Assembly (NCBI GenBank): GCA_964016885.1
Contig: OZ024745.1
Span: 54,312,001 to 54,376,000 of the forward strand
Origin: Eledone cirrhosa
Lineage: Eukaryota
DNA: 64,000 bases
Reading direction: 5' to 3'
In this document: piece after piece, positions 10,610 to 40,615 of the stretch
How positions within the stretch are numbered: the first letter of the stretch is position 1
How the letters are laid out: every line of letters starts with the position of its first letter
Notes under the pieces: generated by a model
What the model saw: the letters and a program-made list of their open reading frames with translations, nothing else
Told to the model about the DNA's origin: nothing
The model's database searches: none
Position numbers and translations under genes: made by a program

Positions 10610-10968
10610 AAGAAAAAGAGATGAAATCGAAAATGCAACTGGAGTCTTATTTAAAAAAAAAATATATATTTATTTGGTTCCTTTACCGGTTTCGCAGTTC
10701 TTCTGCTTTTCAAAAGGTGAGTTGAGATGGAGGGTCTGTGGTTTTTCTCACATCAGATGTGAGAAAAACCACAGACCCTCCATCTCAACTCACCTTTTGA
10801 AAAGCAGAAGAACTGCGAAACCGGTAAAGGAACCAAATAAATATATATATTTAAAAAAAAAATAAGACTCCAGTTGCATTTTCGATTTCATCTCTTTTTC
10901 TTTATACTTTCACTCGTGTAGGACACCTCGGTTATTTTTCATTTTGTAAAAAAAACCCTCACTTTCTA
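10610..10968 (+). mobile_element. Palindromic hammerhead-bearing element, family B (PLE pLTR-like)
   Basis: Inverted repeat 10610-10902 centred on 10755, followed by an unpaired tail to ~10968. Flanked by (TA)n on both sides. Confidence 0.75.
10793..10830 (+). ncRNA. Minimal type I hammerhead ribozyme, U3-A8 core variant (mirror copy at 10680-10717, minus strand)
   Basis: CCTT-TTGAAAA-GCAG aagaa CTGC-GAAA-CCGG-TA^-AAGG: stem I CCTT/AAGG, stem II GCAG/CTGC, palindromic ACCGGT stem III, predicted GUA cleavage after 10826. Confidence 0.72.
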
Positions 10969-11094
10969 ATATATATATATAAATGAAAGGTATAGAATAT
11001 ATATATATATATATATATATATATATATATATATATATATAACCAAAGTTTATATGGTTCGTTGATATTATTCAACGAATACAATTTTACAATA

Positions 11095-11480
11095 GATTAG
11101 AAGCAGTCGACAAGAAATTTTTCTGGAGTATTTAATATTATTCAAAATATTAATAAATGAAAGATATTCTCATAACCAAAATATATATTTTATTATATAT
11201 ATTTCAAAGGTACAATGGTGTTTCAGTACATTTTCATCAGATAAAATATATGAGAGATTGGATATGCGACATAACGCTAAGGTTTTGATTATTCAATTCT
11301 TGTAGTGGAATACAGGAATTGAATAATCAAAACCTTAGCGGTATGTCGCATATCCAATCTCTCATATATTTTATCTGATGAAAATGTACTGAAACACCAT
11401 TGTACCTTTGAAATATATATAATAAAATATATATTTTGGTTATGAGAATATTTTTCATTTATTAATATTTTGAATAATAT
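11095..11480 (-). mobile_element. Palindromic hammerhead-bearing element, family A
   Basis: Inverted repeat 11135-11480 with a 6-nt loop at 11305-11310. The unpaired tail lies on the left and reads tactccagaaaaatttcttgtcgactgctt on the minus strand. (TA)n flanks. Confidence 0.8.
11364..11432 (+). ncRNA. Type I hammerhead ribozyme (mirror copy at 11183-11251, minus strand)
   Basis: ATATATTTTAT-CTGATGA-AAATGTAC...GTACCTTT-GAAA-TATATA-TA^-ATAAAATATAT. 11-bp stem I, canonical core, predicted cleavage after 11421. Confidence 0.85.
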
Positions 11481-12779
11481 ATATATATATATATATATAT
11501 ATATATATATATATATATATATATATATATATATATATATATATATATATATAGAGAGAGAGAGAGAGAGAGAGAGAGAGAGAGAGCGACTTAGATTATC
11601 TAAACGAGACAGGTAGGGTATATTTGATAGAAAACATATCTGCACGCAAACAAAGGAAGCCATACTGAATATAATTACTCAAGAGTGAATACCATGTTTG
11701 CAAAGTTTTTGTCATTCAATCGATGAAGTTTTGTGCTCTTTTGCTCGTACGATGCCTTTTCACCATGGTTCAGTCGCTGTACTCTCACACTTTTCTATGT
11801 TACTGTTAATGCCGATCGCTTAGCCTTCGCAGACATGGGAATAGGAACAAACTTGATTACATATAACATACGTAATCGTACCAAAGCAATAGAGTGAATG
11901 TAAACATTATTGATTTTACTAGCTTTATAAATCCTTCGGCAAGTCAACTCCATTTATGAGGTTACAATTATTTTAACACTTCGTAAATAACCGACTGAAA
12001 TACAACTAACGGACATATCGACTCTTGGTTCCTTTCATAAATGTAAACAATTCTACGACCCTCTTTGATGTAACGGTTTTACATATTCTTCAGTGATTCG
12101 AATTAACTTTTATCCATCGAATTATTCTGGAGTTCGGGTTGTACTTAAATATATATGTACGGCACACCGAAAATTTGTTCAGATTATCCGCAAATAGTAT
12201 AACTATGGTTCAGATAACCGGGAATTGACAATAATTTAATCAAAACTGCGTATTTACTAGTGTCATGCATGAGTTATGTATTTCGAAAGTTTAGGCTGGG
12301 AGAGATTCAGTTTCTAATGAATTTTATACTGTTTATCTTTTGTATTTACTACTTTTTTCGTGCTTGTGCTTGTATGCAACAACATATTCTCAGTCATTAC
12401 ACACATACACACACATACACACCCACACACACACGCACCCACACACACACACACACACATATATATATATATATGGTTACATTGAAGTTTACCAATATAT
12501 ATCGTTGATGCTAATCAGTAACCTTAGTCCAGTAACCGAAAAAGTCTAAGGCAGTTTTTAGCCTTAGTAAATTTTGCTATAGACTGTTATGTCACGGACT
12601 GCAGAACGCTCTCTCTCTCTCTCACACACACACACACATACACACACTCTCTCTCTCTCTCTCTTTATATATATATATATTATGTGTGTATGTGTGAAAC
12701 CGGTGTGTTCGACGCTTTTTGGTGTAAACCGGTGGCAAAAACCGGAAATATAAGCACTCCATAAATAAGGATCGATAAA

Positions 12780-12965
12780 ATAATTGTTTCTACTTTAGGC
12801 ACAAGGCCAGCAATTACCCAGTGCATTACTGGTACTTTATTTTATCGACCCCGTAAGGATGAAAGGCAAAGTCAACCTCGGCGGGATTTGAACTCAGACC
12901 GAAAGGGACGTAACTATGCTGGAAAGCATGGCGTCCGACCCTCTACCGATACTGCCAATCCACCT
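12780..12965 (-). mobile_element. tRNA-derived SINE, full length
   Basis: Same family as 6658. TSD taaggatcgataaaataat at ~12766-12784 and ~12972-12990. Confidence 0.88.
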
Positions 12966-13566
12966 TGATCTTAAGGATCGATAAAATAATAGCAGATAGA
13001 AGTAATTACTTGGTTCCATATGATAAACAAAACTTTCTGAAGACATCATGATCGAGTAAATTTGTTAAACAAACTTAAATTCAACTGACATATATAAATA
13101 AATAATAGTTTATTTAAAATTCCGAATACTGAACTCGAGGCAATCAGTCATTCTGATAAACATAGCTGCCAAATCTGTACCTTATCCTACCATACCCTCT
13201 TAAATGAAAACAGCAAAGTTATATAACGAGATGCGCGGTGCATACATATTAAATAAAAACAAAATCTCAGATGGAACAATGTCTACTCAATCGCTGGTGA
13301 TATTGTCAACAACAACAACAACAACGACATCGTCTCCACTTCACTCCACTCAACTCATCAGTTAACAATTTCAGGAATTTCGGATTGGATTATAGCTCAT
13401 AATTGAAGAAGAGACATTGTAAGCAGGCTGTTATTTCATAACTCTACGAAAACATGGATAAATATAATGATGTTAATAATTATAAATGTTCAATGCAGCA
13501 TCACAAGATTATGTATAAAATGATTAGAAATTTTACAAATACATTTGTACCAGAGCAGGCACCCAT

Positions 13567-13645
13567 ATCTATCTATCTATCTATCTATCTATCTATCTAT
13601 CTATCTATCTATCTATCTATCTATCTATCTATCTATCTATCTATA
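13567..13645. repeat. (TCTA)n microsatellite with no Tx1 insertion
   Basis: Seen directly. Confidence 0.95.
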
Positions 13646-13964
13646 TATAATATGTGTGTGTGTGTGTGTGTGTCTGTCTGTCTGTGTATGCGTGTGCATT
13701 TTATCTTTTAATAGCCTCCACATACACATATACAAATATCTGTCTATGTGTCTGCTAACAATGTATATAGGACATACAACACTCCCATATATATATATAT
13801 ATAAGTTATTCCGGGTTGAATCGAAGGTAACCACAGTAAGTATAAATGGGAAATCATCAGGAATGATTTCGCACGAATGAAACAGTTCTAGTCCTGTAGA
13901 AGCTCTTCTATATTAATATATATATATATATATATATAAATATATATATATATATATATCTGTA

Positions 13965-38967: not shown

Positions 38968-39230
38968 GCGAAGGCATGTGGCTTACTGTTTAGGATATTT
39001 GTCTGACGATCGTGACGTTGTGATATTCGATCCCCGGCGGTGTTCTATGTCTTTGAACATTACTCTTCATTTCAAGTTGTTCCAATTAGCTCAGCTGATG
39101 TATAGGAGTTGTACATGTAATTCAAAGGCTAACATTATCACACACTGTGTAATGCCGAATCTCCCCGAGAACTACCTTAATGGTGCACATGTCTGTGAAA
39201 TGCTCAGTCATTTGTACGAAAATGGATGAG
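38968..39230 (+). mobile_element. Diverged tRNA-derived SINE, second family
   Basis: ggcatgtggcttactgtttagg...gacgatcgt...ttcgatcccc head, then a conserved-core-like gtctttgaac...ctcagctg segment. Confidence 0.55.
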
Positions 39231-39415
39231 AGAAGGTCACACGATATTCTCTCGTCCATTTTCCTTCCAATCACTTCTGCTGGCCAACATAATTTTAGCC
39301 GGCGCCGTCATTGACGGCAATTTGTTGTCTTAACAGCTTCCTTGCGTTGAGTTCTTCCCATATATATATATATATATATATATATATATATATATATATA
39401 TATATATACATAGCC

Positions 39416-39512
39416 AGGGTGTCCTCCCAAAATGTATAAATACTTTGATTACCTGTACAGGCAATATTTATTAGAATGCCGTTGAAGTGTGTATACATTT
39501 TTCGTGGACACA
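39416..39512. mobile_element. ~95-bp Tc1/mariner-like MITE
   Basis: Terminal inverted repeats cagggtgtcc...aaaatgtata / tgtatacattttt...ggacac. A second, partial copy is at 15098. Confidence 0.6.
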
Positions 39513-39709
39513 CACACACATATATATATATATATATAGATATTTATACATACATACATATATATATATATATATATATATATATATATATATATAAGTA
39601 TGTACACGTACATACATATATGTATACAGACGTACAGTAGTATGTATATATATATACATACATACACACAGTAGTATGTATATATATATACATACATGCA
39701 CACATACAT

Positions 39710-40015
39710 GCAACCATCGTTGCTGGTTTGTTCAACACTGACAAAAGAACGCTGTACTAGTTTCAAGCTTATTAGCTATCGTCAGCAACGTATACCTTCC
39801 TGCCAGATTGTTGAACGTATATACTTACCGTATGCGTATTCTGGCAGGAAGGTATACGTTGCTGACGATAGCTAATAAGCTTGAAACTAGTACAGCGTTC
39901 CTTTGTCAGTGTTGAACAAACGAGAAACGATGGTTGCTGGACACTACGGCTTAATACGGTATGTTTGTTTACAAACACACCGAGCATTATAATAAATGTT
40001 CGGTGAATCCATACG
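39710..40015 (+). mobile_element. Palindromic hammerhead-bearing element, family C
   Basis: Inverted repeat 39710-39937 with a 32-nt spacer at 39808-39839, then an unpaired tail. Embedded in TA/CATA microsatellite. Confidence 0.78.
39856..39898 (+). ncRNA. Minimal type I hammerhead ribozyme (mirror copy at 39749-39791, minus strand)
   Basis: ACGTTG-CTGACGA-tAGCT aata AGCTt-GAAA-CTAG-TA^-CAGCGT. Palindromic ACTAGT stem III, predicted GUA cleavage after 39892. Confidence 0.87.
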
Positions 40016-40194
40016 TACATATATATATGTGTGCATGTATGTATATATATATACATACTACTGTATGTCTGTATACATATATGTATGTACGTGTACATAC
40101 TTATATTTAAGTAACAGCCGTACTAAGAGTGGGAAATGAAATTTCGTTTCATTTTTTCCGTTTATATATATATATATATATATATATATATATA

Positions 40195-40615
40195 TACAAT
40201 ATTAAATAAATGGAAAACTATATTTATAAAACCATATTTATTTCATTATATATATTTCGGGGATATCATATTAACAATATGCTATGCCTTCATCAGACAA
40301 AATACAATATAAACAGTTTTATAGATAAATATATTCAACATACCGTAATAAACATCAACTTCATTTGAAGAGGTTTACGCTAGAGGTTTACTGCTAGCGT
40401 AAACCTCTTCAAATGAAGTTGATGTTTATTACGGTATGTTGAATATATTTATCTATAAAACTGTTTATATTGTATTTTGTCTGATGAAGGCATAGCATAT
40501 TGTTAATATGATATCCCCGAAATATATATAATGAAATAAATATGGTTTTATAAATATAGTTTTCCATTTATTTAATATTGTAAATATACTCCAAATATTT
40601 GTCGAGTGCTTTTAT
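40195..40615 (+). mobile_element. Palindromic hammerhead-bearing element, family A
   Basis: Inverted repeat 40195-40582 with a 10-nt loop at 40384-40393, then tail tactccaaatatttgtcgagtgctt. (TA)n on the left. Confidence 0.8.
40473..40538 (+). ncRNA. Type I hammerhead ribozyme (mirror copy at 40239-40304, minus strand)
   Basis: TATTTTGT-CTGATGA-AGGCATAGCATATT gtt AATATGATATCCCC-GAAA-TATATA-TA^-ATGAAATA. Predicted cleavage after 40530. Confidence 0.83.

What the first reader, a model, noticed from the sequence alone, without database searches (positions are those of the whole stretch)
10610..40615. Dispersed palindromic 'double hammerhead' elements in TA microsatellites: five copies, three families
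Seen: five 230-390-bp near-perfect palindromes (10610-10902, 11135-11480, 15792-16145, 39710-39937, 40195-40582). Each arm holds a type I hammerhead motif, so both strands carry one. Only one arm continues into a short unique tail, and each element abuts (TA)n-type repeats. None has coding capacity. Known: minimal type I hammerheads with a tiny palindromic stem III (here ATATATAT, ACCGGT, ACTAGT) are typical of Penelope-like element pseudo-LTRs and retrozymes, and cleave as dimers; Penelope insertions often carry an inverted, truncated pLTR. Inference: these are non-autonomous, ribozyme-processed retroelements, or the stereotyped insertion products of several PLE families, targeting (TA)n. Transcripts would form long hairpins, which are potential ADAR or siRNA substrates in a lineage known for heavy RNA editing. 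Full hairpin pairing would also compete with ribozyme folding.
Basis: partly seen in the sequence, partly recalled or inferred. Interest (0 to 1): 0.85.

Follow-up and report, generated by a model that had tools for sequence, protein, structure and literature searches.

The report
Head-to-head Penelope retroelement insertions
The five palindromes are real but belong to abundant repeats: ends of Penelope-like retrotransposons and of one small ribozyme retroelement, set head-to-head in TA repeats, and nearly every such pair has one long and one short end, likely because the RNA is copied twice, once from each cut DNA strand.

Summary
The five palindromes, their hammerheads and one-sided tails are real; 9 of 10 arms keep an intact core. 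They are not a new element class. Four are pseudo-LTR ends of Penelope-like elements: elsewhere in this genome the same arms flank an intact Hydra-type ORF (E), decayed Hydra-type ORFs (B, C) and an intact Neptune-type element (A). The fifth (D) is a ~425-nt tandem retrozyme. Exact motif counts are 1,911 (E), 6,306 (A) and 5,150 (D). Opposite-strand hammerhead pairs, inverted copies, tails and (TA)n targeting are published features. What the copies add is a rule: 93 of 95 head-to-head pairs join one tailed and one tail-less arm, each end fixed and abutting TA, and either arm can reach further 5'. Neither arm can then be a fold-back copy of the other. Best model (inferred): the endonuclease nicks both strands, two reverse transcriptions start at the two tail boundaries, and the cDNAs are joined, often near a likely transcription start. 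Arm ends do not map to the ribozyme cut. The retrozyme shows the same signature, pointing to Penelope-like mobilisation. RNA editing was untestable.

The parts
10610..10754 (-). Family A inverted arm, tail-less end at 10610 abutting (TA)n; hammerhead (U3-A8 core) with predicted cut at 10684
10755..10902 (+). Family A sense arm from the 5' hot spot (+1 = 10755); hammerhead core 10797-10803, palindromic stem III, predicted cut after 10826; pseudo-LTR of a Neptune-type PLE
10903..10968 (+). Family A tail; in full-length copies it runs on into ORF1
11040..11134 (-). Family B tail (left side), ending at (TA)n
11135..11304 (-). Family B tailed arm with hammerhead, predicted cut at 11194; pseudo-LTR of a Hydra-type PLE
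   Evidence: L360
11311..11480 (+). Family B tail-less arm with hammerhead core at 11375, predicted cut after 11421
15792..15963 (-). Family C tail-less arm; hammerhead core broken (G of GAAA missing)
15974..16145 (+). Family C tailed arm, hammerhead core at 16042, predicted cut after 16090; pseudo-LTR of a Hydra-type PLE
16146..16229 (+). Family C tail; runs on towards the ORF in L151
39596..39807 (-). Retrozyme D inverted arm, tail-less end, internally deleted; hammerhead with predicted cut at 39755
39840..40103 (+). Retrozyme D sense arm; type I hammerhead core at 39862, predicted cut after 39892
40104..40163 (+). Retrozyme D 60-nt tail, ending at (TA)n
40195..40383 (-). Family E tail-less arm with intact hammerhead core
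40384..40585 (+). Family E junction (short templated duplication) and tailed arm; core 40481-40487, predicted cut after 40530; pseudo-LTR of an intact Hydra-type PLE
40586..40669 (+). Family E tail; runs on to the ORF start in L225 and L231
13951..14625 (.).

Best explanation
The palindromes are head-to-head pairs of ends of Penelope-like elements (A, B, C, E) and of one tandem retrozyme (D) in (TA)n, likely made by twin target-primed reverse transcription. Inferred steps: the element's RT-endonuclease nicks both strands of a TA run; each 3'-OH anneals to a UA/UAUA motif at one of two fixed start sites in the sense RNA (the two tail boundaries); each cDNA runs an independent distance, in short copies to the RNA's likely 5' end 50-140 nt upstream of the hammerhead; the two cDNA ends are joined by 1-6 nt microhomology or short templated fillers and filled in. 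The hammerhead is carried along uncut. The palindrome is a by-product, not the replicating unit. Shown: family identity, fixed ends, the long-plus-short rule, independent arm extents. Confidence is about 0.95 for identity and 0.65 for twin priming.
For: Masters: E arms flank an intact 737-codon ORF in L225 and L231, whose predicted fold best matches telomerase RT (E 1.3e-9). A arms flank intact ORFs with Pfam RVT_1 and GIY-YIG. C and B flank decayed relatives. Two fixed ends: 96 of 99 E arms end at +197 to +199 or +281 to +289. Pair rule: long plus short in 41 of 41 E and 20 of 21 A pairs, and 13 of 13 D, 5 of 5 C and 14 of 14 B pairs. Independent arms: the tail-less arm reaches further 5' in 8 of 17 kb-scale pairs with clean junctions and in 7 of 25 compact E pairs, 5 of which have a tailed arm starting only at +169 to +244. 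13 of those 17 junctions overlap by 1-6 nt. Masters read TA or AT at or next to the ends. 5' hot spot: 35 of 99 E arms start at +1 to +9 against 5 at -1 to -10; 14 of 33 A arms start at -1 to +4, 30 nt below a TATAAAA box. PMC11167929 shows in vitro that a PLE protein cleaves and extends both strands and starts at two sites that bound the tail, without needing hammerhead cleavage.
Against: No biochemistry or RNA data for these families. L151 (family C) has tails on both outer ends, and one A pair inside the complex locus L326 is short-plus-short. B and C loci were picked by a tailed query, so one arm is long by selection; part of the A loci were picked for long ORFs; E pairs come from the first 100 matches on one contig. 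Several E junctions, the window's included, carry short inverted duplications that look like fold-back at a cDNA end. Arms share variants within a copy (E: 15 shared, 1 right-only), which a fold-back explains simply and twin priming explains only if both cDNAs use one RNA or one source locus. The transcription start is inferred from motifs; in E the site also resembles a splice acceptor after a pyrimidine tract.
Confidence: 0.65

Rival explanations
1. Antisense-template model: one cDNA starts at the long end, then self-primes or switches onto an antisense RNA whose 5' end is the short site (in the spirit of PMC3846280).
For: It also gives strict long-plus-short pairs and, with a template switch, independent arm lengths. 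PMC3846280 reads head-to-head palindromic junctions as self-priming on an antisense template and notes opposite promoter motifs.
Against: The short end would be a run-off end and should often be truncated, yet it is as exact as the long end even on arms over 3 kb and sits at a TA microhomology. In vitro both tail boundaries are start sites on one template RNA.
Confidence: 0.17
2. Single-cDNA snap-back: the first cDNA folds on itself, copies itself, and the endonuclease trims the tail from one arm.
For: Arms share variants within a copy, and compact junctions often centre on a self-complementary 4-6-mer or hold short inverted duplications. PMC8557442 attributes the tail to endonuclease resolution.
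Against: The tail-less arm must then be nested in the tailed arm. It is not in 8 of 17 long pairs, by 0.27 to about 4 kb, nor in 5 compact pairs with an almost tail-only long arm. Snap-back may still shape some junctions.
Confidence: 0.12
3. The palindromes are non-autonomous elements that move as a unit and are released by their ribozymes.
For: 29 of the 30 best E hits were palindromes with nearly the same centre, and cores are conserved.
Against: That sample was biased by a query holding the centre. An unbiased pattern sample shows a continuum of insertions from 225 nt to 6.4 kb. No interior left-arm variant recurs in E. Ends do not map to the cut.
Confidence: 0.04
4. Library or assembly fold-back artefacts.
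For: No public read or contig was shown to span a centre with 31 bases on both sides; the best-covered raw reads were of related subfamilies.
Against: Arms differ by substitutions and indels, end at two family-fixed sites, obey the long-plus-short rule in five families and can be non-nested. A fold-back artefact gives none of these.
Confidence: 0.02

Closest known systems
Hydra-clade Penelope-like elements (Craig et al. 2021, PMC8557442)
   Same: E master P0001: single ORF, RW-basic motif, DKT, CxCX5C linker, no CCHH, CxxC and CxH near the end, hammerhead in the pseudo-LTR, (TA)n target. B and C are decayed relatives.
   Different: Unit about 4.1 kb with a 1.6-kb 3' UTR (paper: generally under 3 kb); tail about 85 nt (paper: 30-40 nt for PLEs); RWR rather than RWK.
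Neptune-clade Penelope-like elements
   Same: A master: GxKF, DKG, CX4CxxC linker, GIY-YIG with CCHH-type residues at the C-terminus, hammerhead in the pseudo-LTR.
   Different: An upstream 400-aa ORF overlaps the RT ORF in the -1 frame; U3-A8 hammerhead core; tail about 65 nt. Neptune versus Nematis was not settled by a tree.
Minimal PLE hammerheads (Cervera and de la Pena 2014, PMC4209133)
   Same: Palindromic helix III, unpaired base at the 5' side of stem II, U3-A8 variant, and pairs 100-700 bp apart on opposite strands, read there as truncated PLEs.
   Different: The sections read do not analyse the ends of such pairs.
Non-LTR retrozymes (PMC7229834; bioRxiv 10.64898/2026.07.22.740005)
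   Same: D: non-coding tandem unit, one type I hammerhead per unit, monomers to long arrays, U-U at the base of helix II as in an axolotl family.
   Different: Unit about 425 nt, slightly above the 170-400 nt given; it has two fixed ends, a tail and head-to-head pairs, not mentioned in the passages seen ('tail' occurs 0 times in the preprint).
L1 twin priming (recalled, not from a call)
   Same: Both target strands prime cDNA and give an inversion joined by microhomology.
   Different: In L1 the second primer lands at a variable internal site and the segments do not overlap; here both start sites are fixed and the arms usually overlap.

Membership tests
EN+ Penelope-like element (A, B, C, E) | Arm is a terminal repeat flanking an RT ORF | tested here: met
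   E: L225, L231; A: L327, L330, L332, L333; C: L151; B: L360, decayed
EN+ Penelope-like element (A, B, C, E) | Telomerase-like reverse transcriptase | tested here: met
   P0001 model (pLDDT 87.5) matches TERT at ranks 1-3; A ORF2 has Pfam RVT_1, E 5e-7. Pfam and PDB sequence searches missed P0001.
EN+ Penelope-like element (A, B, C, E) | C-terminal GIY-YIG endonuclease | tested here: met
   A: Pfam GIY-YIG, E 3e-6. E: by motif only (VY..YVG, R, H, E, N); no profile hit, and the domain was not fold-searched alone.
EN+ Penelope-like element (A, B, C, E) | Partial tandems, inverted 5'-truncated copy, one-sided tail | tested here: met
   features as in PMC8557442
EN+ Penelope-like element (A, B, C, E) | Type I hammerhead in the pseudo-LTR | tested here: met
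   stem II covariation in 5 of 10 pairs, on only 6 related sequences
EN+ Penelope-like element (A, B, C, E) | Ribozyme cleavage and retrotransposition activity | not testable with these tools
   needs in vitro assays
Hydra clade (B, C, E) | RWK-type motif, DKT, CxCX5C linker, no CCHH, CxxC and CxH motifs, (TA)n target | tested here: met
   P0001 and L151 read against section 11 of PMC8557442; RWR in place of RWK
Hydra clade (B, C, E) | Phylogenetic placement with reference Hydra elements | not tested
   no reference sequences held
Neptune clade (A) | GxKF, DKG, CX2-5CxxC linker, CCHH | tested here: met
   ORF2 translation against PMC8557442 passages; these motifs do not exclude Nematis
Neptune clade (A) | Single ORF | tested here: not met
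   Two overlapping ORFs in at least 7 of 20 loci fetched; the Fig. 1 legend of PMC8557442 allows a frameshifted ORF1 for some PLEs, and the figure was not visible
Non-LTR retrozyme (D) | Short non-coding tandem units with one type I hammerhead each | tested here: met
   period 421-430 nt in L152, L153 and arrays on C1; 5,150 exact hammerhead 36-mers
Non-LTR retrozyme (D) | Expressed as self-cleaved circular RNA | not testable with these tools
   no RNA data for D; the one run search was made with family E
MITE or foldback DNA transposon | Fixed symmetrical terminal inverted repeats moving as a unit | tested here: not met
   asymmetric ends, variable centres, continuum to full-length RT elements

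The most novel reading that the evidence does not exclude
Penelope-like elements of two distant clades, and a retrozyme, integrate by obligatory twin priming: one complex nicks both strands and launches two cDNAs from two fixed start sites, so the inverted pseudo-LTR and the one-sided tail are a single signature. This would explain the long-open inverted-repeat architecture without an antisense template, and would be direct mechanistic evidence that animal retrozymes use the Penelope-like machinery.
Probability: 0.5. Interest if true: 0.7.

Novelty: new member of a known kind. Interest (0 to 1): 0.45.

Why it matters
The elements themselves are ordinary for their class. The young, abundant families give a quantitative rule for how inverted pseudo-LTRs and tails arise, which PMC8557442 and PMC3846280 leave open, and they link it to the two start sites seen in vitro in PMC11167929. 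Intact natural copies of two clades make the model testable. The same signature in a retrozyme bears on which enzyme moves retrozymes. If transcribed, such palindromes would be a large source of long double-stranded RNA, but expression is untested.

Tried and rejected
Rfam: only chance miRNA-type hairpin matches among the 150 rows shown. Ribozyme-defined 5' ends: suggested by L151, rejected, 1 of 15 near the cut and 11 of 15 crossing it. A palindromic master for E: suggested, rejected as query bias. A DNA search with the 3' part of E returned nothing because its words are too common. One search counted overlapping loci twice and mis-binned A's long end; it was replaced. Pfam and PDB sequence profiles did not recognise P0001. 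Public runs: no RNA holder listed; reads and contigs were inconclusive for the centre. An autonomous partner for D: none seen among the first 30 weaker matches printed; no genome-wide search. ESM Atlas on A's ORF1: gag-like hits at 0.86 or less, a lead only. The 6744-7611 'palindrome' is two dispersed repeat copies, so that caller's total of 18 in 400 kb is inflated. Earlier findings of the scan: none. PMC5850863 was not held.
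Full report
Observation. All five palindromes are present with 94-99% arm identity. I call them A (10610), B (11135), C (15792), D (39596) and E (40195). 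A minimal type I hammerhead scan found 7 sites in the window, all inside these elements, and none in 30 shuffles. C's left arm has lost one core base, A uses the U3-A8 core, and D is longer than reported. A sixth palindrome, F, lies at 13951-14625.

Copy number and setting. The genome is 3.0 Gb in 1,796 contigs. The best named relatives of the E protein are from Argonauta at 37-41% identity, so an octopod host is inferred, not shown. Exact patterns match 1,911 (E), 6,306 (A) and 5,150 (D) times, with 0 for reversed controls. B, C and F had 2,703, 2,962 and 2,647 first-look candidates, of which 40 each were scored. Forty fixed-position 10-kb stretches held 41 arms and 5 palindromes of the window's seven families in 400 kb, against 16 arms and six palindromes in the window's first 41 kb (D was added by hand). 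The window is a local cluster of a common feature. The family set came from this window, which inflates the contrast.

Identity. In L225 the E arm and tail run into an intact 737-codon ORF, a 1.6-kb 3' UTR and a second arm with tail ending in TA. Its model (pLDDT 87.5) best matches telomerase RT, and its motifs fit the Hydra clade as defined in PMC8557442. C and B, 72-78% identical to E and to each other over the aligned stretches, flank decayed ORFs of the same kind. A's upstream sequence leads to a GIY-YIG domain, and full-length copies carry RVT_1 and GIY-YIG with Neptune-type motifs. D occurs as 421-430-nt tandem units with one hammerhead each, the definition of a non-LTR retrozyme.

End rule. 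96 of 99 E arms end at one of two sites about 87 nt apart. Distinct head-to-head pairs joined one long and one short end in 41 of 41 E, 20 of 21 A, 13 of 13 D, 5 of 5 C and 14 of 14 B cases. L151 is long-long, giving 93 of 95. Sampling: E from 79 loci around the first 100 matches on C1; A from 30 pattern loci and 20 chosen for long ORFs or inverted pairs; B and C from the 30 best hits to tailed queries; D from all loci then held. B and D counts include the window's own copy.

Arms are independent in extent. Of 28 kb-scale pairs given to, 26 were resolved and 17 had junctions within 25 nt. In 8 of the 17 the tail-less arm reached further 5', by 0.27 to about 4 kb, and 13 of 17 overlapped by 1-6 nt. 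Of 25 compact E pairs, 7 had the short arm further, 4 the long arm and 14 were similar; in 5 the long arm was little more than the tail. In these cases neither arm can be copied from the other. Yet arms share variants within a copy (E, 29 copies: 15 shared, 1 right-only, 40 left-only of which 24 at one alignment-end site; A 5/3/32; C 9/13/28; B 21/19/47), so both derive from one source, and no left-arm signature is inherited in E.

Why about 150-190 nt arms. Short copies start at a hot spot: 35 of 99 E arms at +1 to +9 of an initiator-like site (the anchor hides starts beyond +21), and 14 of 33 A arms at -1 to +4, exactly 30 nt below TATAAAA. PMC3846280 reports a TATA box and a TCACT initiator in a pseudo-LTR. 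I infer run-off at the RNA 5' end. The ribozyme cut (+141 in E) defines no end, and 11 of 15 5' copies of C-type elements cross it. This matches PMC11167929, where cleavage was dispensable in vitro, both strands were extended, and two start sites bounded the tail.

Mechanism. The simplest reading is twin target-primed reverse transcription, followed by joining of the two cDNA ends. This is inferred (0.65). An antisense-template switch explains the pair rule but not the exactness of the short end. Snap-back fits the junction duplications but not the non-nested pairs. A transcript through a whole insertion is computed to fold at -239 to -342 kcal/mol, against -27 to -109 for one arm, so the hammerhead would be sequestered. 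Expression and editing are untested.

Comparison with print. Seen: PMC4209133 parts 1-2 of 4; PMC11167929 parts 1-2 of 4; PMC8557442 passages and section 11; PMC3846280 passages; PMC7229834 passages; bioRxiv 10.64898/2026.07.22.740005 part 1 of 5 and passages. No figures or supplements were seen, and they may bear on Hydra and Neptune architecture. Opposite-strand hammerhead pairs, the U3-A8 core, inverted truncated copies, one-sided tails and (TA)n targeting are all described there. Searches for a twin-priming account and for a frameshifted Neptune found none, but the library lacks most subscription papers, including several older PLE reviews.

Verdict. Real, explained, new members of known kinds. 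Interest 0.45, resting on the end rule and on its presence in a retrozyme.

Noticed in passing
L327:3542-4741 and 4654-6978 (G000:C4), also L324, L328, L330, L332, L333, L336: The autonomous A element has a 400-aa ORF1 overlapping the RT-endonuclease ORF in the -1 frame. A UUUUUUA heptamer lies in the ORF1 frame in all 18 copies of the site scored, and ORF2's first Met is at residue 163, after the conserved GxKF and DKG motifs. Likely a programmed -1 frameshift (role of such heptamers recalled).
   Followed up: partly
window 13951-14625: Sixth palindrome F with a 56-nt central duplication. The family has 2,647 candidates; fuller copies show a hammerhead-like motif with an about 85-nt loop 2. 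Both arms here end at the same site.
   Followed up: partly
window 16326-16436 (also 15195-15356): Family G: TA-flanked repeat, the commonest of the set (23 arms in 400 kb), palindromic with a one-sided extension in L376 and L035. The window copy looks like a tail-only arm joined to a short arm.
   Followed up: partly
window 41085-64000, minus strand: About 23 kb of 69- and 75-nt repeats that read as Pro/Thr-rich, mucin-like peptide (longest open stretch 2,390 aa in that frame; an Asn/Thr/Ile frame is open for 5,584 aa).
   Followed up: no
window 2559-5006 (-); 25946-31338 and 33264-38240 (+): An RTE-like LINE ORF with RVT_1 and a PHD finger, and two related frameshifted LINEs with ORF1, endonuclease and RT.
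   Followed up: no
window 10968-11040 and 40163-40195: A and B, and D and E, sit only 30-70 nt apart in shared TA runs; other loci show similar stacking (L012, L203, L255), suggesting TA runs are reused as targets.
   Followed up: partly
G000: A 123-aa piece of the Hydra-type RT had 24,382 first-look candidates and the Neptune-type endonuclease 16,938: both clades are very abundant here.
   Followed up: no
window 39803-39807 region (- strand) and D units in L062, L082: The D unit holds a splice-donor-like motif shortly upstream of its hammerhead; role unknown.
   Followed up: no
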